Shown: piece after piece, positions 2,896 to 50,316 of the stretch | How the letters are laid out: the number at the start of each line of letters is the position of its first letter | Numbering within the stretch: the first letter of the stretch is position 1 | From: Candidatus Uhrbacteria bacterium CG10_big_fil_rev_8_21_14_0_10_50_16 | GTDB taxonomy: Bacteria; Patescibacteriota; Patescibacteriia; UBA9934; UBA11717 | Length of the DNA: 64,000 nt | NCBI GenBank assembly: GCA_002774875.1 | Contig: PCYM01000006.1 | Span: 17,434 to 81,433, forward strand | Direction: 5' to 3' | The notes under the pieces: generated by a model | Told to the model about the DNA's origin: nothing | Databases searched by the model: none | Seen by the model: the letters and a program-made list of their open reading frames with translations, nothing else | Program-made: the position numbers and the translations under genes

Positions 2896-2989
2896 ATCCG
2901 TATTATACGACACTTGGTGCAGACGAGCGAGTGTGAATTGACAAACAACCCAATTTACGTTAGGTTGGATCTGTTGGCGCTGCACACAA

Positions 2990-29068: not shown

Positions 29069-29090
29069 CAGCTAATCGTGAACACAAAAA

Positions 29091-29113
29091 CACCCACAAT
29101 CGTGGGTGTTTTG
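29091..29113. terminator. bidirectional rho-independent terminator
   Basis: CACCCACAATCGTGGGTG flanked by A-run and T-run, between convergent genes. Confidence 0.6.
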
Positions 29114-29124
29114 AATTGCGGTCA

Positions 29125-29934: not shown

Positions 29935-30174
29935 AGAAAGTCGCATTAAAGATATATCGAGTATACAGCAAAGTATGGGGTTGTGTTTAAAATCTTCTTG
30001 CCGCATAAAATCCCTCCATGTTGGCTGTGAAGGATTTTTGACGTCTCTATTTAAATGATGGGCGAGAGAGTTGACAATTTGTAGATATTCTGTTATAAAA
30101 AACATGTTTTTAGATGTGTGGCGACCAAAAGGTCAAAGCACAATGGCAGTTCATCATTCAGTAGGGAGATCGTC

Positions 30175-30480: not shown

Positions 30481-30833
30481 GGTCGCTCAACCGTCCAACC
30501 GAGACAGCTACACGAGCTGCCTACTCCGGTGGGCGGTTTCGTGTTTTATATTGATCTCACTTTATATTTAACCTGCGTAACCAAAACGCATGTGTTTGAA
30601 GATAAGCCTCCTCGACGAAGTATTTCAGCAATTAGGAGCGAGGAGTTGTGCAAAAATAAGGGACAAGCCGGCGCCATGCTTACAAGACCTTATCTCTGAC
30701 AAGCTGTCTTCTGCGTGCGAACGCACGCAGAGTGGCGTGGCCTGCCGAGTCACTTATTTTTGCACCACTCCGGGCGCTCCTTGACGTAGACCCACATTTT
30801 GGCTATTGTTCCGGCACAAAATCAATTACACGT

Positions 30834-37721: not shown

Positions 37722-37896
37722 AGTGATTGGATTGTATCAAGGATCCCGGTCTGTATCGAGAGGTCGCTCGGATTGTGTTTAAAAAAGTGACTCGGAAGTA
37801 GAGACACGTCTTCGTGCCTTCGCACTCAGAAGACAGCTAGCCAGGAGTAAGCCTTGTACGTCTCTATCCGATTGTCCCTTTTTGTAAACACAACCC

Positions 37897-38030
37897 TTCG
37901 CTCCCTACATTGCCTGAACTCCTTCGTCGAGTACTCTTATCTTCAAACACAGTCGTTTTGAGAAGACTTGCGCTGTGGCTCCATCTTTCAAAACACCTGT
38001 GTTCTCGGGGACGAAGGCTGGATCTGATAA
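37897..38030. repeat. intergenic repeat, family B copy 2
   Basis: CGCTCCCTACATTGCCTGAACTCCTTCGTCGAGTACTCTTATCTTCAAACACAGTCGTTTTGAGAAGACTTGCGCT...TGTTCTCGGGGACGAAGGCTGGATCTGAT is collinear with 32266-32490. Confidence 0.5.
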
Positions 38031-38075
38031 GGTCCAGATCTGACCCATGCATCTCACACTTATACGAATCCTCAA

Positions 38076-38112
38076 TATTCAAATATGTGACGATCGCCCG
38101 TATTTTGAAACA
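38076..38112. repeat. palindromic element, family A (degenerate copy)
   Basis: TATTCAAATATGTGACGATCGCCCGTATTTTGAAACA: TTCAAA/TTTGAA arms around a GACGATCG core. Confidence 0.5.
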
Positions 38113-38170
38113 GGTGGTTTTAAGAGATTTCAACAAACCGCAATAAACAATGATTTAAGAGGCGATGAAG

Positions 38171-38210
38171 AAATATCAAACATGTGACGATCGGCACATG
38201 TTTGATATTT
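38171..38210. repeat. palindromic element, family A (perfect 16-bp arms)
   Basis: AAATATCAAACATGTG-ACGATCGG-CACATGTTTGATATTT. Confidence 0.6.
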
Positions 38211-38274
38211 GGACACGATAGTAATTTTTAGGATTATCTGGATGCCTGACTTCAAACTCTCAATGAAAACGAAA

Positions 38275-38299
38275 CGCGCTCCAGGATTCCTGGAGCGCG
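38275..38299 (-). terminator. rho-independent terminator at the left edge of the GC-rich island
   Basis: CGCGCTCCAGG-ATTC-CTGGAGCGCG (11-bp stem); on the minus strand it is followed by TTTCGTTTTC. Confidence 0.6.
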
Positions 38300-38384
38300 T
38301 CGTTCGTGTTCTGATCTGACTCAACCCAGGACGGGGAGTCTGTTCTCTCGCGCACGATCAGCATTGCGCGAGGTGGGGGGCGGC

Positions 38385-39200
38385 TCAGGTCTCCTCGTCG
38401 TCGGTGGCCGTCGTGGGGCGGGGGGCGAACTGGAGGAACTTCCCGCCCCTCCGAATCGGCCACCAGCCCATCACGGCATAAAAGGCGAACAAGCCTCCCA
38501 CACCGCAGAGGGCGAGCCCCATGAGGATGTAGGCCAGGGCCCACATCCCCCGAGGCTCGCCGGCGGGGTTTGTGCCGGCGCCGGCCACCATCACCGCCAG
38601 GCCCCAGAGGGCCAGGACCATGGCGGGGATGAGGGCGTAGAGCCGCAACATCCCAGCTGAGGTGGTGGTGAAGGGCTCCTTGGCGATCTTCACCACCTTC
38701 TCCTTCTTCCTCTCCACCACCTTGTAGAACACCGTCGGCTTGGTGCCGATGGTCCCGAGGTTGAGGGCCTTCTTGGCCGGTGGGGTAGACCCTCCGACAG
38801 GGGTGAAGGTGAATCTGGCCAGCTTCACCTTCTTGGCCGGAGCCGTCGGAGGGGCGGGGGCGGCCGCAGGGGCAGCTTTGGGAGCTGCCTTCGGTGCAGC
38901 CTTTGGAACTGCGGGTGCCGCGGGAGGCGGGACCGGTGCAGCCTTGGCCGCCGGCACGAGGGCGGCGCACTGCCGTGCTACCCACTCTCGCCGCGAGGTC
39001 TCCGTCTCTCCGCCGCCAAAGGGCCGGCGGAGGTTGACGGCTGCCTCCAAATCCCCCTGGAGCCCTCTGGCAGCTTCCACCCAGGCCAGGAGGTCGGGGT
39101 TGGGGGTGGTCTCGAGGATCACCATGTAGTGACCCTTTGAGACCTCGTCGGGGCCCAACGCAACGCCGGTACTCCGGAGGAGCCTGAATCTGTGGGCCAT
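38385..39200 (-). CDS. hypothetical membrane protein (island gene 1): N-domain, (KAAP)n linker, C-terminal TM hairpin
   Basis: 271 aa from MAHRFRLL with RBS AAAGGAGG; ~65% GC with GC3 bias. Pro/Ala/Lys-rich linker AAPKAAPKAAPAAAP. Two C-terminal TM helices. No recognisable family. Confidence 0.7.
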   Translation of the reverse strand: MAHRFRLLRSTGVALGPDEVSKGHYMVILETTPNPDLLAWVEAARGLQGDLEAAVNLRRPFGGGETETSRREWVARQCAALVPAAKAAPVPPPAAPAVPKAAPKAAPKAAPAAAPAPPTAPAKKVKLARFTFTPVGGSTPPAKKALNLGTIGTKPTVFYKVVERKKEKVVKIAKEPFTTTSAGMLRLYALIPAMVLALWGLAVMVAGAGTNPAGEPRGMWALAYILMGLALCGVGGLFAFYAVMGWWPIRRGGKFLQFAPRPTTATDDEET

Positions 39201-39265
39201 GCGGCCTCCTTTCCGGGCGTTTAGCCCTTGTTTTTGGGGTTTCTCACATCTTGTGTGAGCCAAGC

Positions 39266-39294
39266 AACATACCAGAAAAATGCAATTTTGTCAA
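39266..39294 (-). promoter_or_regulatory. sigma70-like promoter for island gene 1 (TTGACA-17-TATGTT on the minus strand)
   Basis: On the minus strand: TTGACAAAATTGCATTTTTCTGGTATGTT. Confidence 0.5.
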
Positions 39295-39316
39295 TGGGGG
39301 AGGTGTTTGGGTGAGG

Positions 39317-39345
39317 GTTGACAAAACCGTGTTTTTCTGGTATAT
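39317..39345 (+). promoter_or_regulatory. sigma70-like promoter for island gene 2 (TTGACA-17-TATATT)
   Basis: TTGACAAAACCGTGTTTTTCTGGTATATT, a near-identical mirror image of the minus-strand promoter 22 bp away. Confidence 0.55.
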
Positions 39346-39451
39346 TTCTACGTTATTCCTTAGGAATAGCCGCGGCTTCTGCCGTGTTGAACCGTTCTCT
39401 AAAATTGAAACGCGAAAGCGTACGAGACACCCAACACGGAAGGAGCCAAAT

Positions 39452-41452
39452 ATGGCACCCAAGAAGACCCCGTCCCCTACCGTTCCATTTTGGAAGACGG
39501 TGGAGGACATGATCGGCCAGCAGGTCGGTCACGCGGCAGGTAAGGGCCTGTCGCACTCCCACATCGTCACCCTCCTGGTGTCGATGATGAACGATCAGGT
39601 TCTCGGAGCGCTCAGGTTGGCGGGGCCGTCTTTGACGGCCGGCGTCGGCAAGACGGCGTTCCAGGTTTTGAAGGGCCGGATCCCGGTCCTCAAGAACCTC
39701 GCGGATCCCGTTCTGGAGGAGGCCATGGAGGGCCTCCTCAACGGGTTCTTCTCCCACCTCGCCAAGTTCCCCGGTGCGACGGACGCCCAGGCGCGCATGG
39801 CTCTGTTGGCTGCGGCCAACGAGTCCATGATCGCGCACGCCCCGGTCTCCGGGGGGGCGGTCAAGCCCGGCAGCTTCGTGCTGTCGGATGCCGTGCTCAA
39901 GGCCTTGGAGGAGAAGTACGACGAGGACTCCGTCAGGGAGATCCTCGCGTGGTACTGCCACGGGGTGAGCTGCCTCGCAAGGGCAGCCCTGGACATGAAC
40001 GTCCAGGACAGCCTCGCCGTGGAGGCCGGGATGGCCTTCAACCACGGCGATTTCTCGAGCGTGGTCTCCGTGATCACGTTCGTGGAGACGGCCAAGAAGC
40101 ACCAGGGATCCTTCGAGAACCTGGTATACGCGTGCGCGGCCGTGGTCCAGGCCAACACCGCCGCCGACCACAGCGGCATGCGGACCACGTTCATGGCGCG
40201 CCGCTTGTTGGCGCGCGGCCTCAACTGGCTCGGGGTCAACGGGACCCGCCAGAACTTCATGAACGTTCTCGGGAACTGGATCGCCCCCGGACTGCTCAAG
40301 GACGGGCAGTTCGTGGCGTTCCTCGTGGCCCTCTGGGTCGCGTGCTACGTGACCACGGCGGTTCCGTGGTTCTACGCCGCGCGTGCGGGGAGCTTCGTCG
40401 GGATGTTCATCCTTGCGGCGCTCAATCTGATCGTGACCCAGTTCACCCTCAAGGTGCTGGGTCTGGTCGTCGGGGTTCATTCGTCCCTGTACCGGGGAGT
40501 GCTGCACTTCCTCGGCCAGAAGGAGGAGGGTGGCGGGGACAAGCTTCCTGCCCTCCAGTCCCTGAGGGCGCAGGCCTCCAGCCCCCTGCTGGTGGCTACT
40601 GTGCTCAACGCGATCTTGATTTTGCTCCTGGGGGAGACCCCGCGAGCATTCAACTTCGCGATCATGATCTTGATGGCGACCGTCTCGGTCGGTATCCTGA
40701 TCAGCATCTGGGACATGGCCAAGACGAGCCACGCCAAGTTCTTCCTCGATGCGGGGATCAAGTACCTCCTCCCCGTTTTGCTGGCCTCCATGGCCTGGGA
40801 CGTGTACGACGCCTTCACCCAGAGCCAACTCCCCGGCAAGGGGATGCGGCTCATGGGCAATGTCCACGAGTTCTGGGGCTGGGCGACCAGCTTCAGCATG
40901 GGACAGGTGGTCACGGGAGGACTCACGATCCTCTTGGTGGCCGCAGTCGCCTTCGCCCTCAAGCAGGGCAAGGTGTGGCACGCGATCGCCCTCGTGGTGA
41001 TCGCGGTCCCCCTCTCGTGGATCGTGGACTGCTCCGTTTCGGCGCCCAAGCGCGCCGAGGCCGCACAGGAGCAGAGGGCGCAGGAACATGCCCTCCAGCT
41101 GGAGACCCTTCGTCTCCAGCGGCAGGTGGCGGAGGCGGGGAAGACCGTCATTGTCGTCGGCGACCCGGTCCTCGCAATGCGTCAACTGGGTGGCCCCACC
41201 CGCAAGGCGGACATCGCCCTGCGGGTGCCTCGCGAAAGCTCGGCTGCAACCGAGCGCGAGGAGATCCAGATTGAGGATGAGGAAGAGTGGGAGGAGGACC
41301 TCGACATGTTCGTGCCGGAGAAGCCGAACATCAGAGAGATCCTCCGCGAGCGGGAGGAAAGGGCACAGCGTACGGTTCACCACCGTCCGCGGCCCTCCTC
41401 CCGCCGCACGTCGGCCCACCACCACCGCGCGCAACGGAATGCGCGTAGGTGA
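39452..41452 (+). CDS. hypothetical large polytopic membrane protein (island gene 2)
   Basis: 666 aa from MAPKKTPSPTV with RBS AGGAG. ~330-aa soluble N-domain, ~7 predicted TM helices, a coiled-coil (EAAQEQRAQEHALQLETLRLQRQVAEAG) and a charged RE-rich tail. ~65% GC; no recognisable family. Confidence 0.75.
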   Translation: MAPKKTPSPTVPFWKTVEDMIGQQVGHAAGKGLSHSHIVTLLVSMMNDQVLGALRLAGPSLTAGVGKTAFQVLKGRIPVLKNLADPVLEEAMEGLLNGFFSHLAKFPGATDAQARMALLAAANESMIAHAPVSGGAVKPGSFVLSDAVLKALEEKYDEDSVREILAWYCHGVSCLARAALDMNVQDSLAVEAGMAFNHGDFSSVVSVITFVETAKKHQGSFENLVYACAAVVQANTAADHSGMRTTFMARRLLARGLNWLGVNGTRQNFMNVLGNWIAPGLLKDGQFVAFLVALWVACYVTTAVPWFYAARAGSFVGMFILAALNLIVTQFTLKVLGLVVGVHSSLYRGVLHFLGQKEEGGGDKLPALQSLRAQASSPLLVATVLNAILILLLGETPRAFNFAIMILMATVSVGILISIWDMAKTSHAKFFLDAGIKYLLPVLLASMAWDVYDAFTQSQLPGKGMRLMGNVHEFWGWATSFSMGQVVTGGLTILLVAAVAFALKQGKVWHAIALVVIAVPLSWIVDCSVSAPKRAEAAQEQRAQEHALQLETLRLQRQVAEAGKTVIVVGDPVLAMRQLGGPTRKADIALRVPRESSAATEREEIQIEDEEEWEEDLDMFVPEKPNIREILREREERAQRTVHHRPRPSSRRTSAHHHRAQRNARR

Positions 41453-41533
41453 TGTAAACCCCGGTGCAACGCCGGGGTTAGGACACAGGTTGCTCAGCAC
41501 CTAGGACCCAAAGCTGAGTACTCACGAAGACAT

Positions 41534-41575
41534 CACCCTCGACCGGTTCACGGTCGGGGGTGTCTTCTTTTTTAC
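41534..41575 (+). terminator. rho-independent terminator at the right edge of the GC-rich island
   Basis: CACCCTCGACCG-GTTCA-CGGTCGGGGGTG followed by TCTTCTTTTTT. Confidence 0.6.
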
Positions 41576-41773
41576 AATAGGTGTTTGGCTTTTGCTGTTT
41601 CACCGTTCGTTGCGCCTGTGTCTTTGTATTTATCTTTCATTTTTTTGATCATTCCATCTCAGATCGCTTCGTCTTCCCTCCCTCGTTCATTTCTTTTGTT
41701 TGCTCACTCACCTCCACCAAACTTATTTACATCTGCCATATCAAAAATGTCGTACCTATGACAAATCTGATAC

Positions 41774-41806
41774 AAAAAAACACCCGCCAAGAGGCGAGTG
41801 GTTTTA
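41774..41806 (-). terminator. rho-independent terminator at the end of the pilin-like operon (minus strand)
   Basis: On the minus strand: CCACTCGCC-TCTT-GGCGGGTG followed by TTTTTTT. Confidence 0.55.
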
Positions 41807-41854
41807 TCTGATTCGATCTCACTGGATCCGATCAATTTGCTACTCAACTTGTTA

Positions 41855-42259
41855 CTAGACCTGGGAGGCGAGCAGGAGCTGGCTTATCGCGAAGTTGGAA
41901 ATTGCGAATGCGGACAGAATAATGATCATGCCAATAACTCCCTGTGTAAGCATCGTGGTTGCCTTGGTCACTTTTGCAGGATCTCCTTGCGCGGTCATCC
42001 AAATAAAACCTGCGTAGAGTGTAATGAGGAAGAAGATGATTCCCAAGAGACCCAAGAGCACGTTTACAACGTTTCCGATTGTATTAAAGATCTGATCTTG
42101 GCCTCCACCTCCGATGGTTGTAATATCTGCCGCCTGATCAAGCGCAGCCGTTGGGTCACCCGCATCAAAAACTGCTTGCGCAGGAATTGAGAATGCAAAG
42201 GCGCCGAGAAGGAGGAAGCTCGCAAAGAGTGTTGTGAAGAATTGTTGTGTGCGTGTCAT
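41855..42259 (-). CDS. small secreted two-helix hairpin protein, paralog 1 (VirB2/TrbC pilin-like)
   Basis: Sec signal peptide with AQA cleavage. Shares with the other four paralogs the core IGNVVNVLLGLLGIIFFLITLYAGFIWMTAQGDPAKVTKA...GVIGMIIILSAFAISNFA. Confidence 0.7.
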   Translation of the reverse strand: MTRTQQFFTTLFASFLLLGAFAFSIPAQAVFDAGDPTAALDQAADITTIGGGGQDQIFNTIGNVVNVLLGLLGIIFFLITLYAGFIWMTAQGDPAKVTKATTMLTQGVIGMIIILSAFAISNFAISQLLLASQV

Positions 42260-42297
42260 AGGTAAAAAGTTGAATCAATGTGTTTTAGAGAGAACCG

Positions 42298-42693
42298 TTA
42301 AACGTTTGTTGCAATATCGAGCTGCGTTACCACAAAGTTGGTAATGGAGAACGCCGAGAGCAGTATGAGGAGGCCGATAGTGGCTGTGACGAGAATGTCT
42401 TGCGCTTTCTTTACTTTGGCCGGGTCCCCTTGCGCCGTCATCCAGATCGTCCCTGCATAGACAAACAGGATAAAGACGAGTAGTCCTGAGAGCCCTACGA
42501 CCACATCGATAATTCTACCAATGAGGAAGGGGAGTGATACAGGGTCAGACGCAAACGCTGCAGCAGAAGCGGTTTCGCTCAGCCCTGTCGTCTCCGCGTT
42601 AATGACGGCTAAAACAGGGGTTGCAACGGCAAGACCAAAGAAGAGAAAGAGCGACATGCCCGCCAACAACAGTCGTTGTTTGGTTGCGGTCAT
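42298..42693 (-). CDS. small secreted two-helix hairpin protein, paralog 2
   Basis: Signal peptide ...PVLA; core IGRIIDVVVGLSGLLVFILFVYAGTIWMTAQGDPAKVKKAQD...IGLLILLSAFSITNFVV. Confidence 0.7.
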   Translation of the reverse strand: MTATKQRLLLAGMSLFLFFGLAVATPVLAVINAETTGLSETASAAAFASDPVSLPFLIGRIIDVVVGLSGLLVFILFVYAGTIWMTAQGDPAKVKKAQDILVTATIGLLILLSAFSITNFVVTQLDIATNV

Positions 42694-42778
42694 AACGTGA
42701 GAGGACGAGGATTCATCTGCTCACGCCAGGACCCACAAGGGGCGCCCCTCCCGATTTGGGAGGGGTAGGGAACCTAGC

Positions 42779-43222
42779 TTACTCAGTGATCGAGTTTGCT
42801 GTTGCGCTAATAAACTCAGTAATAACGAAGTTGGTGATTGCGTAAGCGGAGAGAATGATCGCAAGCCCAATCGCACCTGCCACAATAATCTGCTGTGCTT
42901 TTTGTACTTTTGCTTCCGTTCCACCAGCGGTCATCCAAATGGCACCACCGTAGAGAATGATAATGACAGCTACGATTCCCAAAAATCCAAGTAGCACGTT
43001 AATGATGTTTCCGATTGTGGACTTGAGGTTTGCCTGTCCAAGCCCTGTTGCACCCGTAAAATCATCACTCAACAAATCATCGGCCGTGAGTGTTGACGCC
43101 GCGTGTGCACTATCAACGAGCACAGGTGTAAGCATAGACACGGCCATGGTACCGCCAAACAAGAGGGCAGCGATTGCGAACGATGTAAGAAGGTTGCGAA
43201 GAGCGAAACGTACGTTGGTCAT
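42779..43222 (-). CDS. small secreted two-helix hairpin protein, paralog 3
   Basis: Core IGNIINVLLGFLGIVAVIIILYGGAIWMTAGGTEAKVQKAQQ...IGLAIILSAYAITNFVI. Confidence 0.7.
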   Translation of the reverse strand: MTNVRFALRNLLTSFAIAALLFGGTMAVSMLTPVLVDSAHAASTLTADDLLSDDFTGATGLGQANLKSTIGNIINVLLGFLGIVAVIIILYGGAIWMTAGGTEAKVQKAQQIIVAGAIGLAIILSAYAITNFVITEFISATANSITE

Positions 43223-43245
43223 ACAGTGTTTGTTTTTATGACAGC

Positions 43246-43581
43246 TTAGGCTGCTGTCGCGCCACCAAGTGTGTTGATGACGAAGGTTGCTAAAATGTTT
43301 GCCGCGAAAATAACCGCGAGGCCTATGACCGCCCAGATGAGCGTGTCTCTTCCTTTTGTAATTCTGTCAGGTTTACCTCCGGCCGTCAACCAAAGAAATC
43401 CACCCCAAATAACCATGGCCAATGCGAGCGATCCGGTGATTCCAAGAACCGCCTGAATCACGAATCCTATGAGCTGCGGAATACTGCGTGACCCCAATGG
43501 ATTGTACAACTGACTTGCAAACGCTGCTTGCGGTAATAGGCTCAAACCGAGTGAGAGAAACAAATAGTAGAGACGCTTCAT
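43246..43581 (-). CDS. small secreted two-helix hairpin protein, paralog 4
   Basis: Signal peptide ...AAFA; core IGFVIQAVLGITGSLALAMVIWGGFLWLTAGGKPDRITKGRD...IGLAVIFAANILATFVI. Confidence 0.7.
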   Translation of the reverse strand: MKRLYYLFLSLGLSLLPQAAFASQLYNPLGSRSIPQLIGFVIQAVLGITGSLALAMVIWGGFLWLTAGGKPDRITKGRDTLIWAVIGLAVIFAANILATFVINTLGGATAA

Positions 43582-43584
43582 AAT

Positions 43585-44136
43585 CTATGGTTGTTGAATA
43601 TAACATTCGCCTTCTGCATCGGTCGTGTCACAACAAACACCCGCTTTACAGATAAATCCTGGAGCACAGGCTTTTCCATTGTTGAGTTGCTCGGAAACTG
43701 GCGCGGGTGGTGGTGCACCACAGGTAAGGAATTCACTGCTACTCACGCTGCTTGCATCACCGCTGCGCAAGACGTTGACGCCGTACTGCACGCCAGAGAA
43801 CGCCCCGAAGACAATCAGAAGTCCAATAAAGGAAGAGATAAACATCTTGGTTGCCTTGGTTACCTTTGCAGAATCTCCACGCGCGGTGAGATAGAGAACA
43901 CCTCCCCAAACAATTACGACGAGCAGAATAATCCCCACCATTCCCATAAGGATATCGGCAATGTTGATAAAGAGCTGTAGCGCGCAGTCGAGGGCAAGAT
44001 TTGCATCTGGTCCCCCAGGCTTTGTCGCACATGTGGGAATAATACCGGACGCATCGATTGCGGTTCCTGTTGAGAGTCCCGGTGTATTGGGAATCGTCGC
44101 ATTCGCCGCGAGCGCTGTATGGATAAATGGGATCAT
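43585..44136 (-). CDS. small secreted two-helix hairpin protein, paralog 5, with a Cys-rich C-terminal extension
   Basis: Core ...ILMGMVGIILLVVIVWGGVLYLTARGDSAKVTKATK...IGLLIVFGAFSGVQY, followed by CGAPPPAPVSEQLNNGKACAPGFICKAGVCCDTTDAEGECY. Confidence 0.7.
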   Translation of the reverse strand: MIPFIHTALAANATIPNTPGLSTGTAIDASGIIPTCATKPGGPDANLALDCALQLFINIADILMGMVGIILLVVIVWGGVLYLTARGDSAKVTKATKMFISSFIGLLIVFGAFSGVQYGVNVLRSGDASSVSSSEFLTCGAPPPAPVSEQLNNGKACAPGFICKAGVCCDTTDAEGECYIQQP

Positions 44137-45548
44137 AGCGTTTGATTGACTTCGTTTTGTGCAATACCCAAGGCTTCTTCGATGGTATGCGTTCCCGATA
44201 CAATACTGTCGATCATTTTCTCCATAGCTTTCTCTGCGCTTGTTGCATCGTTTCCATTGTACCAGGCCTGCGCCGACAAGACCTGATCTGCAAAGACGGA
44301 AAGGTCAAAGTCTTCATTTTGTTTGAGCACGAGGCTGCGAAGCGCTGTTGGTTTTCTCGCAGCACTGAGGAAACTGTCGACGTTTTCTTCTGCTGCCGTA
44401 AACTGGATAAAATCCCAAGCCCAGTCTGGGTTATCACTTTTCTTAGAGACACTCTCGATCCAGAAGTTAGCGTAGTTAATGCGTGCGCGAAGGTCTTCTG
44501 AGATCTGCGGCATAGGCGCTAGCCCGATGTTGAGCTTCTGTGCACGGGCCTTAATCAGCGGATCGTGGTAGCTGTAGCCAAAGAAAAATGCTGTTTGACC
44601 CGCAACGAATGCATCGAAACTCCCCGTAAAGCTCTTGTCCCAGGTGTAGGCTTCCTTGGTTGGATTGGCAAAGTCGGTATAAAAGCGAAGCGCGTCGGCG
44701 GAAGGAAGGCTTCGACCGCTAGGGCCGCTCACTGTCTCTGCAAAACGTGCTTGTCCTCTTGCGTCGCTCATCTGTGCGCCACTTTGCATCATGAGAAGCG
44801 AGAGAATATCCGTTGATCGTTCTACATTACTACCGGTTCCAATCGCTGCACCTGATTGAGCAATCCCTCCATTGGCGTTGTACTTGGTGAGTTTAACAAC
44901 GTCTGCTTGAAATTCTTCCCACGTTGCTGGCGGTTGAGGAATACCAGCCGCATCCAAAATGTCTTTGTTGTAGTACAGCGCCAGTGTATCTACGGAGAGT
45001 GGAAGCCCATAGATACGATTCTTTGTACCAGCGGCGTCCGTTGCGGGGTAGACCACGTATTCTGGAACCACTTGCACAAATGAATCCGTCAGCTCTCGTA
45101 ACGAAAGCGTTTGTTCAGTTCTAAGGGCGACGACGAGTTCCTTTTTGAGGGTTCCCTTCATCTCCTGGTAGGTGAGTTTAACTGTGTCAGGCATGGGGGA
45201 AATGAGATCCGTGTAGCCTTTCATCCAGGTGTTGTGCACGGAAAAAATGTCTGGTCCACGGTCTTCCGCAAGCGCGCGAATCAGCTCGCCCTCGTACTCT
45301 TCAAACCGCAATTTGCGATAGTTGATTTTAACGTTTGGGTGAATGCGACGATATGCTTCGATCATGGGATCGAATGTATCCTGTCCATCAAACACACGCC
45401 AAACCGTGAGTTCAATTGGTTGCAATGCTTGTTGTGCGGCATTGCTTCCACCACGACAACCAAGACCAGGAAAGATGGCGAGTCCAACGCTTAAGAGAGT
45501 AAGGATCCAAAGACGTGTTCGTAACATACGTACCGATTGTTCATTCAT
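44133..45548 (-). CDS. extracellular solute-binding lipoprotein (ABC-transporter SBP, sugar-binding family-1 type)
   Basis: Lipoprotein signal MLRTRLWILTLLSVGLAIFPGLGC. SBP_bac_1-like layout (YGLPLSVDTLALYYNKDIL, FFFGYSYH). The stop overlaps the next gene by 4 nt. No permease or ATPase in the window. Confidence 0.85.
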   Translation of the reverse strand: MNEQSVRMLRTRLWILTLLSVGLAIFPGLGCRGGSNAAQQALQPIELTVWRVFDGQDTFDPMIEAYRRIHPNVKINYRKLRFEEYEGELIRALAEDRGPDIFSVHNTWMKGYTDLISPMPDTVKLTYQEMKGTLKKELVVALRTEQTLSLRELTDSFVQVVPEYVVYPATDAAGTKNRIYGLPLSVDTLALYYNKDILDAAGIPQPPATWEEFQADVVKLTKYNANGGIAQSGAAIGTGSNVERSTDILSLLMMQSGAQMSDARGQARFAETVSGPSGRSLPSADALRFYTDFANPTKEAYTWDKSFTGSFDAFVAGQTAFFFGYSYHDPLIKARAQKLNIGLAPMPQISEDLRARINYANFWIESVSKKSDNPDWAWDFIQFTAAEENVDSFLSAARKPTALRSLVLKQNEDFDLSVFADQVLSAQAWYNGNDATSAEKAMEKMIDSIVSGTHTIEEALGIAQNEVNQTL

Positions 45549-45610
45549 TTCAAAAGATGATTCTATTATAGCGGATTTATGCAAAAGATGTGTGTGCATG
45601 AAATAAAAAA

Positions 45611-45636
45611 CACCCGATCGCTCGGATGTTTTTGTG
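45611..45636 (-). terminator. rho-independent terminator after galU (minus strand)
   Basis: On the minus strand: CATCCG-AGCGAT-CGGGTG followed by TTTTTTAT. Confidence 0.5.
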
Positions 45637-45637
45637 T

Positions 45638-46525
45638 TTAGGCTTGGTCAATAAGCGAACGCATGTAAGCAAGGATGTCGTCCTTCATGTCTGCATGTTT
45701 GAGTGCGTAGGCTATGGAGGTTTTTGCATAGGCGAGGTTGGTGCCGCAATCCCACCAGGTTCCATCCAAGATACGCGCGTGTAGGGTACCACCGGTTTTG
45801 ATGTAGGAATCAAAAGCGTTTGCGAGTCGGATCTCACCCGAGGCGTCTTTTGGTTCATTCTTCAATACGTTGATATATTCTGTCGTGAGAATCTCACGCC
45901 CAATGTGCGCGTAGGTAGAGGGTGCATCCTTCTTTGCGGGTTTCTCCACAAACTTACTCACTTTCCATGCAACGTCGTTTACGGGTTCGCCATCAATCAC
46001 ACCAAAACGCTCTACGCGATCAATTCCCACATCTTCCACGAGCGTCACACACCCCCCGAACTCATTGTAAACATCCATGAGCTGACCAATCGCCGGACCC
46101 GACGTGCCTTCAATCAAATCGTCTCCATAACACACGGCCACGGCCTCACCTTCGTCAATAAACGGGATGGCTGCGAGTAGCGCGTGTCCGTCACCCAGGG
46201 GCTTGTCTTGTCGCACGTACGCAAAGTTCGCGAGCTTGCCTACGTTTTTTACTTTGGCGAGGAGCTCTGTTTTTCCGGATTGCTCCAAGCGATACTCTAA
46301 CTCAAAGTTGCGATCAAAGTGATTTTCAATGGCTGCCTTACCGTTGGACGTTACAAAGATAATGTCTTTAATGCCAGCCTCTACAAACTCCTCGACGATA
46401 TATTGCAAAATAGGCTTGTCGACAATAGGAAACATCTCTTTTGGCATGGCTTTTGAGGCAGGGAGTGCGCGTGTTCCCATACCGGCGACAAGGAACACGG
46501 CTTTGGTGATTGGTCGATTGTTCAT
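45638..46525 (-). CDS. galU: UTP--glucose-1-phosphate uridylyltransferase
   Basis: Start placed at MNNRPITKAVFLVAGMGTRALPASKAMPKEM; nucleotidyltransferase fold. Confidence 0.9.
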   Translation of the reverse strand: MNNRPITKAVFLVAGMGTRALPASKAMPKEMFPIVDKPILQYIVEEFVEAGIKDIIFVTSNGKAAIENHFDRNFELEYRLEQSGKTELLAKVKNVGKLANFAYVRQDKPLGDGHALLAAIPFIDEGEAVAVCYGDDLIEGTSGPAIGQLMDVYNEFGGCVTLVEDVGIDRVERFGVIDGEPVNDVAWKVSKFVEKPAKKDAPSTYAHIGREILTTEYINVLKNEPKDASGEIRLANAFDSYIKTGGTLHARILDGTWWDCGTNLAYAKTSIAYALKHADMKDDILAYMRSLIDQA

Positions 46526-46661
46526 AGGTGTTTGAATCAGTAGATGTGGGGATGATTGCATATTTTGGGGGCGACGTCTAGCACAAATCACGATTGACCA
46601 ATGACTGTGGGCGTGGTAGGTTTGTGCTCGTTGTGGGGAGGTTTAGGGTGTCGATGAGTGA

Positions 46662-46699
46662 GGTTTCAAATATGCGACGATCGTCGGTGTTTTGAAACC
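46662..46699. repeat. palindromic element, family A (38-bp copy)
   Basis: GGTTTCAAATATGCGACGATCGTCGGTGTTTTGAAACC: 9-bp outer arms plus an inner self-complementary CGACGATCGTCG. Confidence 0.6.
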
Positions 46700-46778
46700 G
46701 AGCAAAATGATCTATAGAGTGTATATGTTGCCTATGATATTTGATCTGATCGCATCAGACCTGTACATATCACTATAC

Positions 46779-46870
46779 GGAGAGGTGCCAGAGTGGTCGA
46801 ATGGGCTTGACTCGAAATCAAGTGAGCTACGCAAGTGGTTCCGAGGGTTCGAATCCCTCCTTCTCCGCCA
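46779..46870 (+). tRNA. tRNA-Ser (anticodon CGA)
   Basis: GGAGAGG...long variable arm...GAGGGTTCGAATCCCTC-CTTCTCC-G-CCA; anticodon loop ctCGAaa. Confidence 0.85.
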
Positions 46871-46960
46871 AAGAAAAAGGCTCGTTGCAAGACGAGCTTT
46901 TTTCTTTGGCGAGGTAGAGCACATGCCATGCTATAATCACATCAGCAAACACCAACACCT

Positions 46961-47437
46961 ATGACACTCAAATCCTCCCTTCAGCTCGTTGCCTCTATAC
47001 TTATCTGTGAATTTGTTGGAATTGCTGGATCGTTGTTTACGTTCTCGTCCGTTAATAATTGGTACACCACGCTCGCCACACCAGCGCTCAATCCTCCAGG
47101 CTGGGTCTTTGGTCCGGTGTGGACACTGCTCTACGCGCTCATGGGCATCGCCGTGTTCTTGATCTGGCAGAAACGCACAAAACGCACATCGCACAATCGC
47201 GCATTGGCCGTGTTTGCCGCGCAGCTCGTCCTTAATGGTATCTGGACACCCATCTTTTTTGGCGCACACAACCTTGGACTCGCATTTATTGACATCGTCT
47301 TATTACTCCTTGCGATTGTTTGGACCATTGTGGAGTTTTACAAAATCTCTCGCCCAGCCGCATATCTCCTCCTACCCTATGCGGCTTGGGTGAGTTTTGC
47401 AACGTATCTTAACTTGGCTCTTTGGCTGTTAAATTAA
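46961..47437 (+). CDS. tspO: TspO/MBR-family tryptophan-rich sensory protein
   Basis: 158 aa, 5 TM helices, Trp-rich; LNPPGWVFGPVWTLLYALMG is typical of the family. Confidence 0.85.
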   Translation: MTLKSSLQLVASILICEFVGIAGSLFTFSSVNNWYTTLATPALNPPGWVFGPVWTLLYALMGIAVFLIWQKRTKRTSHNRALAVFAAQLVLNGIWTPIFFGAHNLGLAFIDIVLLLLAIVWTIVEFYKISRPAAYLLLPYAAWVSFATYLNLALWLLN

Positions 47438-47441
47438 CGCT

Positions 47442-47840
47442 ATGTTTTTTTTGGAGAAGGCTGGATCCATCATTGTAAGTCATAGGCATCCAATGTGCGT
47501 GGTGATTCTATATCAAACCAAACAGCGGGATTGGACATTCCCAAAAGGACACGTGGAACCTGGTGAATCGTTCGCGCAAACAGCGAGACGAGAAACAAAA
47601 GAGGAGACAGGACTAGATGTTGAGGTAGGTGAGGAGTTGGGAGTCACCCAATATATACATCCAAATGGGCAGGAAATATCCGTGCACTGGTTTAGGACAC
47701 AATCACATGACGACGCAGAACTTAAGCCGGAATTTGCGGGAGGTGAAGCCGTGTGGGTGCCGTTGGATGCGGTTGAGGCTCGCCTTACGTACGCTAGCGA
47801 CAAAGCATTTTTTGCATCAATCAAGGATCAACTCGGTTAA
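47442..47840 (+). CDS. NUDIX hydrolase
   Basis: NUDIX box GHVEPGESFAQTARRETKEETGL. Confidence 0.8.
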   Translation: MFFLEKAGSIIVSHRHPMCVVILYQTKQRDWTFPKGHVEPGESFAQTARRETKEETGLDVEVGEELGVTQYIHPNGQEISVHWFRTQSHDDAELKPEFAGGEAVWVPLDAVEARLTYASDKAFFASIKDQLG

Positions 47841-47868
47841 GCGGGTGGCACGTAGGGCGCATTATAGA

Positions 47869-47905
47869 AGGTTTCAAATAGACAACGATCGTCGGTGTTT
47901 TGAAA
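47869..47905. repeat. palindromic element, family A (38-bp copy)
   Basis: GGTTTCAAATAGACAACGATCGTCGGTGTTTTGAAAC, immediately after the NUDIX gene. Confidence 0.6.
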
Positions 47906-48018
47906 CATTAAAGGAGGATGGTACGCAATTGCGTGCTGTTTTTTATGGGCGCGTGATCCTCACGAGATTGAGGCTTATGGGTTGACAAAAAGCAACAGTT
48001 GCTGTATGATCGCGCGTT

Positions 48019-48720
48019 ATGAAAAACAGCATCACTATTGGAAAACACAAAAACAAGTCCATCCATGTGGGAGGCCGTTCTTATGATCGATTGCCTATCA
48101 AGACGCCCCTTATTACAAAGGAGCATAATCTCGTGGACGTGTGTGTAAGCGGCACGAAATCCTTGATGCAACAGGATGATATTTTGTTTGTGAGCGAGAA
48201 GATCGTAGCTATTAGTCAGGGCCGCGCGTATCCGTTGATGCATATTCACCCGCGTCCTCTTGCGGTGTGGCTGAGCCAGTACGTTTCAAAATCTCCAAAC
48301 GGTATTGGACTCGCGAGCCCCTATACCATGGAACTTGCATTTAAACAGGCTGGTGTAGCACGTATGTTATTGGCGACTGTTGCCTCTGCGCTTACGCGAC
48401 CATTTGGAATTCATGGAGTCTTTTATTTGGTGGCGGGTAACAGTGTAAACGCGATCGATGGTCCTTGTGACTTTGCGATCCCGCCTTATAATCACTATGC
48501 AAAAATGGCTCCACAGAAACCAAGCCGCGTGGCCAAGGAACTCAAGCGCGAGCTCGGGTTTGACGTGGTAGTGATCGATGCAAATGATCTTGGCGTCAAT
48601 ATTCTTGGTAAGTCGAGCCGTAAAATTTCTACACGTTTTTGTAAGGAGTTGTTTAAGGACAATCCTATGGGACAGAGCACCGAGCAAACGCCGATTTGTA
48701 TTGTGCGTCTTGCGGCTTAG
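48019..48720 (+). CDS. F420-0:gamma-glutamyl ligase (CofE)-like family protein
   Basis: DILFVSEKIVAISQGR and ...RVAKELKRELGFDVVVIDANDLG resemble the CofE/F420-ligase fold. The assignment is tentative. Confidence 0.55.
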   Translation: MKNSITIGKHKNKSIHVGGRSYDRLPIKTPLITKEHNLVDVCVSGTKSLMQQDDILFVSEKIVAISQGRAYPLMHIHPRPLAVWLSQYVSKSPNGIGLASPYTMELAFKQAGVARMLLATVASALTRPFGIHGVFYLVAGNSVNAIDGPCDFAIPPYNHYAKMAPQKPSRVAKELKRELGFDVVVIDANDLGVNILGKSSRKISTRFCKELFKDNPMGQSTEQTPICIVRLAA

Positions 48721-48757
48721 GAGGAATCAATTCTGCGTTGAGTGGTGTATTTTGAGA

Positions 48758-48795
48758 GGTTTCAAATATACGACGATCGTCGGTGTTTTGAAACC
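48758..48795. repeat. palindromic element, family A (38-bp copy, followed by a T-run)
   Basis: GGTTTCAAATATACGACGATCGTCGGTGTTTTGAAACC followed by TTTTTGG; it could act as a terminator for the preceding gene. Confidence 0.6.
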
Positions 48796-48846
48796 TTTTT
48801 GGTTTGCGGATTGAGAGGGAATCGGGATTCCTGATAGAATGCACGC

Positions 48847-50316
48847 ATGCATGCAGAACTTCAAAAATTCTTGATCACGTTTGCGCAGACGGTATCCCTC
48901 AATAAAGGACGAGCCTATTTTGTGGGTGGGTACGTGCGCGATCAGCTGCGCGGGATTGCGAGCAAGGATATTGATATTGAGGTGCACGGGGTGGAGCCGA
49001 AGACACTACGGCTTATTGTCGAGAACCATTTTAAGGACGTACAAGAACAAGGAGAGTCATTTGGTGTGTTGCGTGTCTTTTGGCAGTCGTCGGATAAGTC
49101 GGAACAGGTAGAAATTGATATCTCGCTTCCGCGAACAGACTCAAAAGTAGCTCCGGGCCATACGGGATTTGATGTACGAGTGGATCCGTTTATGGGCGTG
49201 GAGGCAGCGGCACAACGTCGTGATTTTACCATCAACGCGATGATGCAAGATGTACTCACGGGTAAGGTTGTGGATCCGTTCGGCGGAAAACTGGATCTTG
49301 AGGCGGGAATTTTGCGTGCCGTTGATGTAGATTTGTTTAGCGACGATCCTCTGCGTGTGTTGCGAGCGGTGCAGTTTGCCGCGCGGTTTGAACTCATGGT
49401 CGAAGAAGAGACGTGCTCGCTTATGCGTGGCATGGTGGATCAACTTGCGGAACTCTCCATAGATCGCAAACGTGTAGAATGGCAAAAATTATTTTTACAG
49501 GCACGGAAGCCTTCCATTGGATTGCAACTAGCACGCGATCTGGATTTGTTTGTGGGTCCGTTGGCGATTTTAGAGAAGATGGCGCAGACCGAGCAGGACC
49601 CCACTTGGCATCCGGAGGGATCTGTCTGGAATCATACGGTGTGGGGATGTGACGAAGCGGCATTGCTTGCAGAACGCGAAGAACTCTCGGAAGAGGATCG
49701 TCTTACGCTTGTTTTAGGAAACCTGTGCCACGATATTGGAAAGATCGACACGACCACACGTAGTGGAGGCCATGTGCACTCGGCGGGACACCAGGAAGTT
49801 GGTCAACCCTATATTGCACCTGTATTAACGGCAATGGGATTTGAAAAATTTGTGGATTCGTCACAAAAAATTATGCGATTTCACCACCACCCCATGTGGC
49901 TGTTTGAACATCAGGAGGAATCCACAGAGGGTCGCCTTCATGCACTCGCGCGACAGCTTAAACCCCTCACGATGCGCATGCTCTCCTACGCCACGGAGGT
50001 AGATTTACGCAGTCGTGGTCCGTACCCAGCAGATGCAACAGGCATGCGACGCCCAGAAATTGCGGATTGGTTCCGCGAGCAGGCGTGTAAACAGGATGTA
50101 TTGGATCACCCGCCAGGGGATGTGGTACGCGGATCAGACCTTATGCATCTTGGACTCAAACCGGGACCCGTCTTTGGACTCATTGTGCGCGTGGCGAATC
50201 AACTCCACGACGATCTCGGCTTGTCTCGCGAGACAATTTTGGAACGGATGGCAATAAAAAAAGACGAGCTGCTTGAGCTCGATCTCTTGTCGTTGTATGA
50301 GACGCTAGCCGAGTAG
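48847..50316 (+). CDS. cca: CCA tRNA nucleotidyltransferase / poly(A)-polymerase family with HD domain
   Basis: Nucleotidyltransferase head GGYVRDQLRG..DIDIEV; HD motif LCHDIGK. Confidence 0.85.
   Translation: MHAELQKFLITFAQTVSLNKGRAYFVGGYVRDQLRGIASKDIDIEVHGVEPKTLRLIVENHFKDVQEQGESFGVLRVFWQSSDKSEQVEIDISLPRTDSKVAPGHTGFDVRVDPFMGVEAAAQRRDFTINAMMQDVLTGKVVDPFGGKLDLEAGILRAVDVDLFSDDPLRVLRAVQFAARFELMVEEETCSLMRGMVDQLAELSIDRKRVEWQKLFLQARKPSIGLQLARDLDLFVGPLAILEKMAQTEQDPTWHPEGSVWNHTVWGCDEAALLAEREELSEEDRLTLVLGNLCHDIGKIDTTTRSGGHVHSAGHQEVGQPYIAPVLTAMGFEKFVDSSQKIMRFHHHPMWLFEHQEESTEGRLHALARQLKPLTMRMLSYATEVDLRSRGPYPADATGMRRPEIADWFREQACKQDVLDHPPGDVVRGSDLMHLGLKPGPVFGLIVRVANQLHDDLGLSRETILERMAIKKDELLELDLLSLYETLAE

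What the first reader, a model, noticed from the sequence alone, without database searches (positions are those of the whole stretch)
38076..48795. Family-A palindromic intergenic elements (GGTTTCAAA..CGACGATCGTCG..TTTGAAACC), five copies
Three near-identical 38-bp copies sit at 46662-46699, 47869-47905 and 48758-48795, in three consecutive intergenic regions. Two divergent copies sit at 38076-38112 and 38171-38210 on the left flank of the GC island. Each has 9-bp outer inverted arms and a self-complementary inner core containing CGATCG.

These are REP/MITE-like hairpins. Two are followed by T-runs and may terminate transcription. One sits in the divergent galU/tRNA-Ser promoter region and could instead be a palindromic operator. 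Their clustering in the accessory zone suggests a role in recombination or insertion.
Basis: seen in the sequence. Interest (0 to 1): 0.55.

Follow-up and report, generated by a model that had tools for sequence, protein, structure and literature searches.

The report
Palindromic operators of a PaaX-like regulator
The five 38-bp palindromes are real and belong to a conserved DNA motif of the ultra-small Patescibacteria that, in related genomes, always brackets the gene of a small PaaX/Cas2-like DNA-binding protein, so they are most likely that protein's binding sites rather than selfish repeats.

Summary
Observation confirmed. Five intergenic palindromes share CA-N9-CGATCG-N9-TG (TTCAAA-N6-ACGATCG-N7-TTTGAA); 0.05 are expected by chance. 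They recur in four independent metagenome assemblies, so they are not assembly duplications. The source is Candidatus Uhrbacteria CG10_big_fil_rev_8_21_14_0_10_50_16.

The same motif occurs in other Patescibacteria (Uhrbacteria, Daviesbacteria-like, Saccharibacteria), always intergenic. In 11 of 11 lineages examined, two copies bracket a ~165-185 aa gene within 0-9 bp of its start and stop codons. That protein is a winged helix plus a Cas2-like domain. Its best structural match is E. coli PaaX.

In one subfamily the upstream copy coincides with that gene's -35/-10 promoter. E. coli PaaX binds TGATTC(N27)GAATCA and represses its own promoter; the window copies read GGTTTC(N26)GAAACC. A Uhrbacteria relative (L064) carries GGTTTCA..CGACGATCGTCG..TGAAACC directly after the gene's stop codon.

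Best reading: operators of a truncated PaaX-like repressor (confidence 0.62). This is inferred. The cognate gene is not in the window or 10 kb either side, and no binding was tested.

Arm symmetry is kept by compensatory changes without a G:U bias, which points to DNA-level symmetry. REP/MITE, terminator and recombination-site readings are weaker but not excluded. No Rfam match or published description was found.

The parts
46662..46699 (.). Copy c1: a 38-bp palindromic element between the divergent galU-like gene (- strand) and tRNA-Ser (+ strand). Its right arm TTGAAA doubles as a -35-like hexamer (46692) paired with TAGAGT (46720).
47870..47907 (.). Copy c2: lies 29 nt after the NUDIX gene stop and 76 nt upstream of the -35 of a TTGACA-17-TATGAT promoter (47982-48010) for the F420_ligase-like gene.
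48758..48795 (.). Copy c3: lies 38 nt after the stop of the F420_ligase-like gene and 16 nt upstream of the TTGAGA-18-TAGAAT promoter (48811-48840) of the CCA-adding enzyme gene. It is followed by TTTTTGG.
38075..38112 (.). Copy c4 (divergent): only the arms TTCAAA/TTTGAA and the centre CGATCG pair. On the - strand it reads TTCAAA-17 nt-CATATT (promoter-like), facing the ~180-nt conserved leader and the Pyr_redox_2 gene.
   Evidence: ortholog in UBA11717 (L011 2941-2972)
38171..38210 (.). Copy c5 (divergent): a 40-bp near-perfect palindrome, 95 bp from c4. Its UBA11717 ortholog is a perfect palindrome that differs by a symmetric change in both arms.
29085..29117 (.). Degenerate relative: CAAAAACACCCACAATCGTGGGTGTTTTGAA, with a CAATCG centre. 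It has an A-run, a GC-rich stem and a T-run, so it looks like a bidirectional terminator. It lies just downstream of the stop of the - strand ORF 29125-30105.

Best explanation
The five elements are double-stranded DNA operators for a small dimeric PaaX-like repressor, made of a winged helix-turn-helix plus a Cas2-like dimerisation domain, that is widespread in Patescibacteria.

Proposed mechanism:
- Each monomer reads one outer arm ((G)GTTTCA / TGAAAC(C), with invariant CA...TG). The conserved centre (A)CGATCG(T) is a further contact.
- The total span is about 38 bp. This matches the 6-bp inverted repeats separated by 26-27 bp that E. coli PaaX uses.
- In relatives the protein's own gene is bracketed by two such sites. 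In the Daviesbacteria-like subfamily the upstream site coincides with the core promoter of a leaderless mRNA. This implies autorepression by promoter occlusion, perhaps reinforced by looping to the downstream site.
- In the window the sites would place several units under the same regulator: Pyr_redox_2 with its leader, galU, the tRNA-Ser/TspO/NUDIX unit, the F420_ligase-like gene and the CCA-adding enzyme gene.

Shown here: the motif, its conservation, its strict association with the gene, and the protein's fold.
Inferred: that this protein binds the sites, that it represses, and that the source genome encodes it.
For: 1. Enrichment. A motif scan of 596 Gb of genomes gave 21 loci. Eight are labelled Patescibacteria, and a ninth (L020, labelled Gammaproteobacteria) carries the same PaaX_M gene at 59% identity to L017's. 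These nine are extended palindromes in intergenic DNA. The others are low-symmetry hits, and the three I checked (L031/L044/L047) lie inside ORFs.

2. Forward association. Four of about 17 independent palindromic hits abut a PaaX_M (PF20803) gene (L009, L017, L020, L029).

3. Reverse test. Starting from protein homologues, 7 of 7 further loci have the motif at both gene ends, within 0-9 bp (L050, L053, L055, L061, L062, L063, L064). In L050, L061 and L062 these are the only CGATCG sites in the locus.

4. Uhrbacteria link. In L064 (GCA_018673485.1) the site after the stop codon is GGTTTCACTAACTCGACGATCGTCGAGTTAGTGAAACC. It shares the arms and the 12-bp core with window copies c1 and c3.

5. Protein.
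- Pfam PaaX_M; NCBIfam PaaX_trns_reg and cas2, near threshold.
- AlphaFold2 model with pLDDT 82 shows a wHTH plus a ferredoxin-like domain.
- Best Foldseek PDB hit is PaaX 8a39 (E = 1.6e-7), then PaaX-like 3l09 and 3kfw, then MarR/PadR regulators.

6. Precedent. The E. coli PaaX box is TGATTC(N27)GAATCA, and PaaX represses its own promoter by hindering RNA polymerase (review PMC9493321). c1 and c3 read GGTTTC(N26)GAAACC.

7. Promoter overlap. In the Daviesbacteria-like subfamily (L017, L020, L029, L050, L061-L063) the upstream site carries a -35 (TTGACA, TAGACA or TTCAAA), a 16-18 nt spacer and a -10 (TAAAAT, TAAAGT or TATATT) that ends 5-9 nt before the ATG.

8. DNA-level symmetry. Mismatches between arms show no wobble bias: G:T 15, A:C 17, other 86.

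9. Modest copy number, and conserved synteny of the gene (comEC-MBL-X-ndk-murA-M50-rpsL).
Against: - The cognate gene is absent from the window and from 10 kb on either side.
- Distances from sites to downstream promoters and genes vary from 19 to 370 nt. c2 lies 76 nt upstream of the nearest -35.
- Some sites lie between convergent genes (L015, L030, and the downstream sites in L062 and L063), which is unusual for operators.
- Within one genome (L053), different sites are each perfect palindromes with different sequences. The two arms of a site match each other better than arms of other sites in the same lineage (p about 0.005). Pure protein recognition does not predict this; it needs quasi-palindrome correction or hairpin selection.
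- c1 and c3 are 37/38 identical, including non-palindromic positions, in unrelated flanks. That looks like copying of a unit.
- The genes next to the sites have no coherent functional theme.
- The protein lacks PaaX's ligand-binding C-terminal domain and keeps the Cas2 Asp motif, so it may do more than bind DNA.
Confidence: 0.62

Rival explanations
1. A REP-like DNA hairpin family whose partner protein, the wHTH-Cas2-like protein, plays the role of a RAYT. The palindromes extrude as single-strand hairpins or cruciforms. The protein recognises the conserved apex and foot, and its Cas2-like domain nicks or copies them, spreading 38-bp units into intergenic DNA.
For: - The gene is flanked by the elements on both sides in 11 of 11 lineages, as RAYT genes are flanked by REPs.
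- Pairing is maintained by compensatory changes: 81% of cells paired against 64% in shuffles, and 116 against 50 double changes. This also holds within lineages.
- c1 and c3 are near-identical in unrelated flanks.
- Many copies sit just after stop codons or between convergent genes.
- The Cas2 catalytic-type Asp and its surrounding motif are invariant.
- L053 has 6 copies in 20 kb.
Against: - There is no HUH/Y1 transposase.
- The motif is conserved across classes, whereas REPs usually diverge fast.
- Copy number is low in most loci: 2 per 20 kb in L050 and L055, and 5 per 81 kb in the source.
- The flanking copies are in direct, not inverted, orientation.
- The best fold match is a transcriptional repressor, in which the Cas2-like domain serves as a dimerisation motif.
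- In the Daviesbacteria-like subfamily the upstream copy is the gene's promoter.
Confidence: 0.15
2. RNA-level hairpins that terminate transcription or protect mRNA 3' ends, as the reader suggested for two copies.
For: - c2 and c3 lie 29-38 nt after stop codons and upstream of the next gene's own promoter.
- c3 is followed by U5.
- c1, c3 and c5 fold well: z = -4.2 to -5.6.
- The degenerate relative at 29085-29117 looks like a canonical bidirectional terminator.
Against: - There is no excess of G:U over A:C in the transcribed orientation.
- The consensus flanks are 5' T-run / 3' A-run and form part of the stem, so there is no U-tail.
- c1 lies in a divergent promoter region with nothing upstream to terminate.
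- c4 does not fold.
- None of the five was called by the terminator scan, while separate canonical terminators exist nearby at 38274-38300, 46866-46911 and 45606-45633.
- In the Daviesbacteria-like loci the upstream copy lies before the predicted transcription start.
- A conserved apex sequence is not needed for termination.
Confidence: 0.1
3. Site-specific recombination or cassette-boundary sites (attC-, dif- or lox-like): two inverted binding arms around a CGATCG crossover region, delimiting exchangeable gene cassettes.
For: - Genes are bracketed tightly by directly oriented copies. The PaaX-like gene is bracketed everywhere, and c2 and c3 bracket the F420_ligase-like gene.
- Some sites are chimeras of different half-site types, for example window c1-c3 and L011 2941.
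- c4 and c5 lie near a 60% GC island and a pilin paralogue array.
Against: - No recombinase is linked to the sites.
- The PaaX-like gene keeps the same neighbours across 60%-identity relatives.
- The synteny break with UBA11717 is about 200 bp away from c5, not at it.
- attC defining features (57-141 bp length, R''/R' cores, extrahelical bases) are absent.
Confidence: 0.05

Closest known systems
E. coli PaaX repressor and its operator, TGATTC(N27)GAATCA (Kim et al. 2004, as cited in review PMC9493321)
   Same: - Two 6-bp inverted repeats about 26-27 bp apart, giving a site of about 38-39 bp.
- The arm sequence is similar: TGATTC against GGTTTC.
- The regulator represses its own promoter by occluding RNA polymerase.
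- The protein has the same wHTH plus Cas2-like middle domain, and PaaX is the best PDB fold match.
   Different: - The Patescibacteria protein is half the size (165-185 aa against 316 aa) and lacks the C-terminal domain that senses phenylacetyl-CoA.
- There is no paa pathway here.
- A strictly conserved CGATCG centre is not described for PaaX boxes.
- Sites sit at both ends of the gene and near housekeeping genes.
- The Cas2 Asp motif is retained.
REP elements with their RAYT transposases (Enterobacteria, Pseudomonas)
   Same: - Short (about 35-40 bp) imperfect palindromes confined to intergenic DNA.
- Often found after stop codons.
- A single-copy, vertically inherited gene is flanked by the elements.
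- Arms keep their complementarity.
   Different: - The partner protein is not an HUH/Y1 transposase.
- Copy numbers are low.
- The flanking copies are directly oriented.
- The motif is conserved across classes.
- There is no GTAG-type foot.
Cas2 (the CRISPR adaptation protein)
   Same: The C-terminal domain hits the cas2 model TIGR01573 near its cutoff and matches Cas2 SSO8090 (3exc). Several database entries are annotated 'Cas2'.
   Different: No CRISPR array and no cas1 were seen next to the gene in any of the loci examined. The domain is fused to a wHTH. The 38-bp palindromes are separated by whole genes, not by spacers.
HIP1 (GCGATCGC), the highly iterated palindrome of cyanobacteria
   Same: It shares the CGATCG core.
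   Different: HIP1 is an 8-mer occurring about once per kb, including inside genes. Here CGATCG is embedded in a 38-bp intergenic palindrome, and total CGATCG count in the window is only mildly raised (32 against 20 expected).

Membership tests
PaaX-type operator | Two 6-bp inverted repeats separated by about 27 bp (TGATTC-N27-GAATCA) | tested here: met
   c1 and c3 read GGTTTC-N26-GAAACC. The 36-site alignment has invariant CA...TG arms. The reference box is taken from PMC9493321.
PaaX-type operator | The site overlaps the promoter of the regulator's own gene (autoregulation) | tested here: inconclusive
   Met in 11 of 11 related lineages. The regulator gene of the source genome is not in the window or 10 kb either side.
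PaaX-type operator | Bound by a PaaX-family protein and released by an acyl-CoA effector | not testable with these tools
   This needs a gel-shift or footprint experiment. The C-terminal effector domain (PF08223) is absent from the small proteins.
PaaX protein family (the associated gene) | N-terminal wHTH plus Cas2-like middle domain plus C-terminal helical domain | tested here: not met
   The first two domains are present: PF20803, and Foldseek hit to 8a39 at E = 1.6e-7. The third is missing. TIGR02277 scores 25-33 bits against a cutoff of 264. It is a truncated relative, not an equivalog.
REP / RAYT | Associated Y1 (HUH) REP-associated transposase | tested here: not met
   The flanked gene is wHTH-Cas2-like.
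REP / RAYT | Tens to hundreds of copies per genome | tested here: inconclusive
   5 copies in about 81 kb of the source; 2 in 20 kb of L050 and of L055; 6 in 20 kb of L053. No complete genome could be scanned.
MITE | Terminal inverted repeats flanked by target-site duplications, typically 100-500 bp long | tested here: not met
   The repeated unit is the 38-bp palindrome itself. The flanks of c1, c2 and c3 share no duplication.
Intrinsic terminator | GC-rich stem immediately followed by a U-tract | tested here: not met
   Only c3 has a T-run. None of the five is in the terminator scan. The consensus 3' flank is A-rich.
Integron attC | 57-141 bp site with R''/L''-L'/R' cores and a nearby IntI integrase | tested here: not met
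   The elements are 38 bp with different cores. The only tyrosine recombinase seen is a XerC-like gene about 35 kb away.
Any Rfam RNA family | Covariance-model match | tested here: not met
   Only tRNAs reach gathering score. Permissive scans of both regions gave nothing relevant.

The most novel reading that the evidence does not exclude
The palindromes and the wHTH-Cas2-like protein form a previously undescribed hairpin-DNA system across the Patescibacteria. In this reading the retained Cas2-type active site nicks or processes the CGATCG apex, so the protein both regulates and propagates or recombines the elements. It would be a RAYT/REP analogue built from a Cas2 fold, or a relic of the stage at which Cas2 was recruited from DNA-binding regulators.
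Probability: 0.12. Interest if true: 0.85.

Novelty: new variant of a known kind. Interest (0 to 1): 0.58.

Why it matters
Almost nothing is known about gene regulation in Patescibacteria (the candidate phyla radiation), which have tiny genomes and few regulators.

This work pairs a conserved 38-bp cis-element with a very widespread small protein family. The family has 5,809 representative clusters at 50% identity, 3,343 of them at E ≤ 1e-10. It is currently mis-annotated as either 'Cas2' or 'phenylacetate repressor'.

If the pairing is confirmed:
- It would give a testable regulon for many uncultured lineages.
- It would correct those annotations.
- It would provide a minimal model of how PaaX-type regulators read two distant half-sites.

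I found no description of the motif or the pairing in the searchable literature.

Tried and rejected
- **Rfam.** Gathering thresholds on the whole window and permissive scans of both regions gave no family for the element.
- **RNA hairpin with wobble pairs.** Rejected, because G:T (15) is about equal to A:C (17) among oriented mismatches.
- **Cognate gene in the window.** tblastn and a family HMM against all six-frame ORFs of the window and all loci found nothing in the window. Extending 10 kb beyond each end also found nothing.
- **GC island as conserved neighbour.** The island's ORFs are not homologous to the neighbour of the c4/c5 module in UBA11717. Synteny therefore ends at about 38404, not at a palindrome.
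- **Picking the Uhrbacteria homologue by amino-acid composition.** The cluster look-up returned no organism names. A profile search then did find Uhrbacteria homologues.
- **Metagenome motif scan.** It returned only 22 loci and missed contigs known to carry the sites, so it is not a census.
- **Literature.** PMC1483010 is not held. PMC3224230 and PMC10364317 say nothing about the PaaX box.
- **Considered from memory and dropped, because the sequences do not fit:** CIRCE, CtsR, LexA, NrdR, Rex, cre, parS, dif, and DNA-uptake sequences. DNA-uptake sequences are also far denser and not confined to intergenic DNA.

Full report
**1. The observation**

- c1 (46662-46699) and c3 (48758-48795) differ at one base.
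- c2 (47870-47907) differs from c1 at five bases.
- c4 (38075-38112) and c5 (38171-38210) are divergent.

All five share TTCAAA-N6-ACGATCG-N7-TTTGAA, with one arm substitution per side in c5. The stricter invariant CA-N9-CGATCG-N9-TG finds exactly these five in 64 kb, against 0.05 expected. All are intergenic.

As single strands, c1, c3 and c5 fold far better than shuffles, c2 folds moderately, and c4 does not fold. c1-c3 share a non-complementary 4x4 inner stretch, so they are not simple hairpins.

The three downstream copies recur unchanged in contigs from four independent metagenome assemblies. That disposes of an assembly artefact. A degenerate sixth relative with a CAATCG centre, flanked by an A-run and a T-run, sits at 29085-29117, just downstream of the stop of a minus-strand ORF.

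**2. Source and setting**

Exact protein look-ups identify the source as Candidatus Uhrbacteria bacterium CG10_big_fil_rev_8_21_14_0_10_50_16, on a 413-kb contig.

The sites lie next to these genes:
- a Pyr_redox_2 oxidoreductase (c4, c5);
- a galU-like gene divergent from tRNA-Ser, TspO and NUDIX (c1);
- an F420_ligase-like gene (c2);
- a CCA-adding enzyme gene (c3).

Between the two groups lie a 60% GC island with no Pfam matches and five tandem T4SS-pilin paralogues.

**3. Distribution elsewhere**

One exact-pattern scan of 185,579 species genomes gave 21 loci.
- Eight are labelled Patescibacteria: two Uhrbacteria UBA11717 contigs, one Saccharibacteria contig and several unnamed lineages.
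- A ninth, labelled Gammaproteobacteria, carries the same Patescibacteria-type gene described in section 4.
- In these nine the match is an extended intergenic palindrome.

The remaining loci are low-symmetry hits, and the three I checked lie inside ORFs. A metagenome scan added further lineages. These include L046, whose site is the perfect-palindrome version of the window copies.

An alignment of 36 sites has invariant CA, CGATCG and TG. At the remaining positions the arms keep their complementarity through compensatory changes:
- 81% of cells are paired, against 64% in shuffles (0 of 500 shuffles reach the observed value);
- there are 116 double changes, against 50 in shuffles;
- slid controls give 36-48% paired.

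Two further results bear on this symmetry.
- Within single lineages, the two arms of a site resemble each other more than they resemble arms of other sites (p about 0.005).
- The orthologous c5 site in UBA11717 differs by a symmetric change in both arms.

Mismatches oriented by transcription show no wobble excess: G:T 15, A:C 17, other 86. The symmetry is therefore a property of the DNA, not of a sense-strand RNA. No Rfam family matches.

**4. The key association**

Annotating the neighbours of the Patescibacteria hits showed that four of them abut a 160-180 aa gene with Pfam PaaX_M. Inspection of the flanks showed a copy of the palindrome at both ends of that gene, 0-9 bp from the start and stop codons.

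I then ran the reverse test: start from protein homologues and fetch their loci. This gave the same picture in seven further lineages: L050, L053, L055, L061, L062, L063 and the Uhrbacteria genome L064. The total is 11 of 11.

Several details strengthen the link:
- In three of these loci (L050, L061, L062) the two flanking sites are the only CGATCG in 6-20 kb.
- In one subfamily the first codons (M-N-D-R = ATGAACGATCG) are the centre of the upstream site.
- In L064 the site after the stop codon is GGTTTCACTAACTCGACGATCGTCGAGTTAGTGAAACC. It has the same arms and the same 12-bp core as window c1 and c3. This ties the window's variant to this gene within Uhrbacteria.
- The gene has conserved neighbours (comEC-MBL-X-ndk-murA-M50-rpsL-rpsG-fusA). 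It is therefore a stable chromosomal gene.

**5. The protein**

- NCBIfam gives sub-threshold PaaX and near-threshold cas2 hits.
- An AlphaFold2 model (pLDDT 82) shows a winged helix followed by a ferredoxin-like domain.
- The best PDB fold match is E. coli PaaX (8a39, E = 1.6e-7). PaaX-like 3l09 and 3kfw follow, then MarR/PadR regulators, with a weaker match to Cas2 SSO8090.
- The Cas2-type Asp and its motif are invariant.
- The family is large: 5,809 representatives at E ≤ 1e-3, nearly all 160-200 aa.
- Databases call members either 'Cas2' or 'PaaX repressor'.

**6. How it most likely works**

A review (PMC9493321) states two things about E. coli PaaX:
- It binds TGATTC(N27)GAATCA.
- It represses its own promoter by hindering RNA polymerase.

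The window copies read GGTTTC(N26)GAAACC.

In the Daviesbacteria-like subfamily, the site upstream of the PaaX-like gene contains:
- a -35 hexamer (TTGACA, TAGACA or TTCAAA);
- a 16-18 nt spacer holding CGATCG;
- a -10 hexamer ending 5-9 nt before the ATG.

The site therefore coincides with the core promoter of a leaderless mRNA.

The simplest model is a truncated PaaX-like dimer that binds the 38-bp palindrome, represses its own gene, and controls a modest set of other promoters.

In the window:
- c1's right arm is the -35 of a promoter-like site facing tRNA-Ser.
- c3 lies 16 nt upstream of the promoter of the CCA-adding enzyme gene.
- c4 reads as TTCAAA-17-CATATT facing the Pyr_redox_2 leader.
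- c2 lies 76 nt upstream of the nearest -35.

Binding, repression and the existence of the gene in the source genome are all inferences.

**7. What does not fit, and the rivals**

Operators do not normally sit between convergent genes (L015, L030, and the downstream sites in L062 and L063).

Protein recognition also does not explain two sequence patterns:
- site-specific perfect palindromes within one genome (L053);
- the near-identity of c1 and c3 in unrelated flanks.

Quasi-palindrome correction and local copying could explain these. So could a REP/RAYT-like system in which the Cas2-like domain acts on hairpin DNA (confidence 0.15).

A terminator or RNA-stability role (0.10) fits the position of c2 and c3 and the tail of c3. 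It does not fit c1, c4, the consensus flanks or the lack of wobble pairs. Separate canonical terminators exist nearby.

A recombination-site role (0.05) has only circumstantial support. The synteny break with UBA11717 is about 200 bp beyond c5.

**8. Novelty**

Full-text searches found nothing that links PaaX to Patescibacteria or to Cas2, or that describes a CGATCG-centred palindrome in this phylum.

I rate this a new variant of a known kind: a PaaX-type repressor and operator pair in minimal form with phylum-wide distribution. There is a small chance of something more unusual.

Noticed in passing
window 30582-30759 (+) and 37781-37960 (-); also L021 213-407 and L011 ~2440-2600: A conserved non-coding element of about 180 nt occurs twice in the window, at 76% identity. 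One copy lies upstream of the trigger factor gene and the other upstream of Pyr_redox_2. It also occurs in Uhrbacteria UBA11717. RNAalifold predicts a long stem with an inner hairpin (47 pairs, 13 with compensatory changes), followed by a T-run. It has no Rfam match. It is a candidate small RNA or a leader containing a terminator.
   Followed up: partly
window 38260-41500: A 60% GC island sits in a genome of about 49% GC. Its long ORFs on both strands have no Pfam hits. Three independent metagenome contigs (L002-L004) end inside it, at about 41178. Its ORFs are not homologous to the gene at the equivalent position in UBA11717. It may be a strain-variable or foreign segment.
   Followed up: partly
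window 41855-44136 (-): Five tandem paralogues of a T4SS_pilin (PF18895) gene, followed by a solute-binding protein gene.
   Followed up: no
window 47922-47945: Directly after c2 there is a separate hairpin, ACGCAATTGCGT, followed by T6. It is a more conventional terminator candidate for the TspO-NUDIX unit than c2 itself. AAGGAGG plus ATG opens a 12-codon ORF across it (47918-47956), which is probably fortuitous.
   Followed up: no
window 47982-48019 and 48811-48847: The predicted -10 hexamers end 6-8 nt before the ATG of the F420_ligase-like and CCA-adding enzyme genes. The same holds for the PaaX-like genes of relatives. This suggests frequent leaderless mRNAs in these organisms.
   Followed up: partly
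L046 2450-2567; L016 2723-2955; L064 20303-20384; window 38075-38210: The palindromes often come in tandem pairs 44-200 bp apart. Examples lie upstream of rplJ and dnaJ, after fusA, and upstream of the Pyr_redox_2 leader. This hints at cooperative binding.
   Followed up: no
L020 (CAZJNI010000002.1, labelled uncultured Gammaproteobacteria): This contig has 34% GC. It carries a PaaX-like gene 59% identical to the one in Patescibacteria locus L017, together with the same flanking palindromes. It is probably a mis-binned Patescibacteria contig.
   Followed up: no
window ~1966-2985 (-) (= L057 8014-8943): A XerC/XerD-like tyrosine recombinase gene (Phage_integrase plus SAM-like N-terminal domain). 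It is the only recombinase seen near the window, about 35 kb from the nearest palindrome.
   Followed up: no
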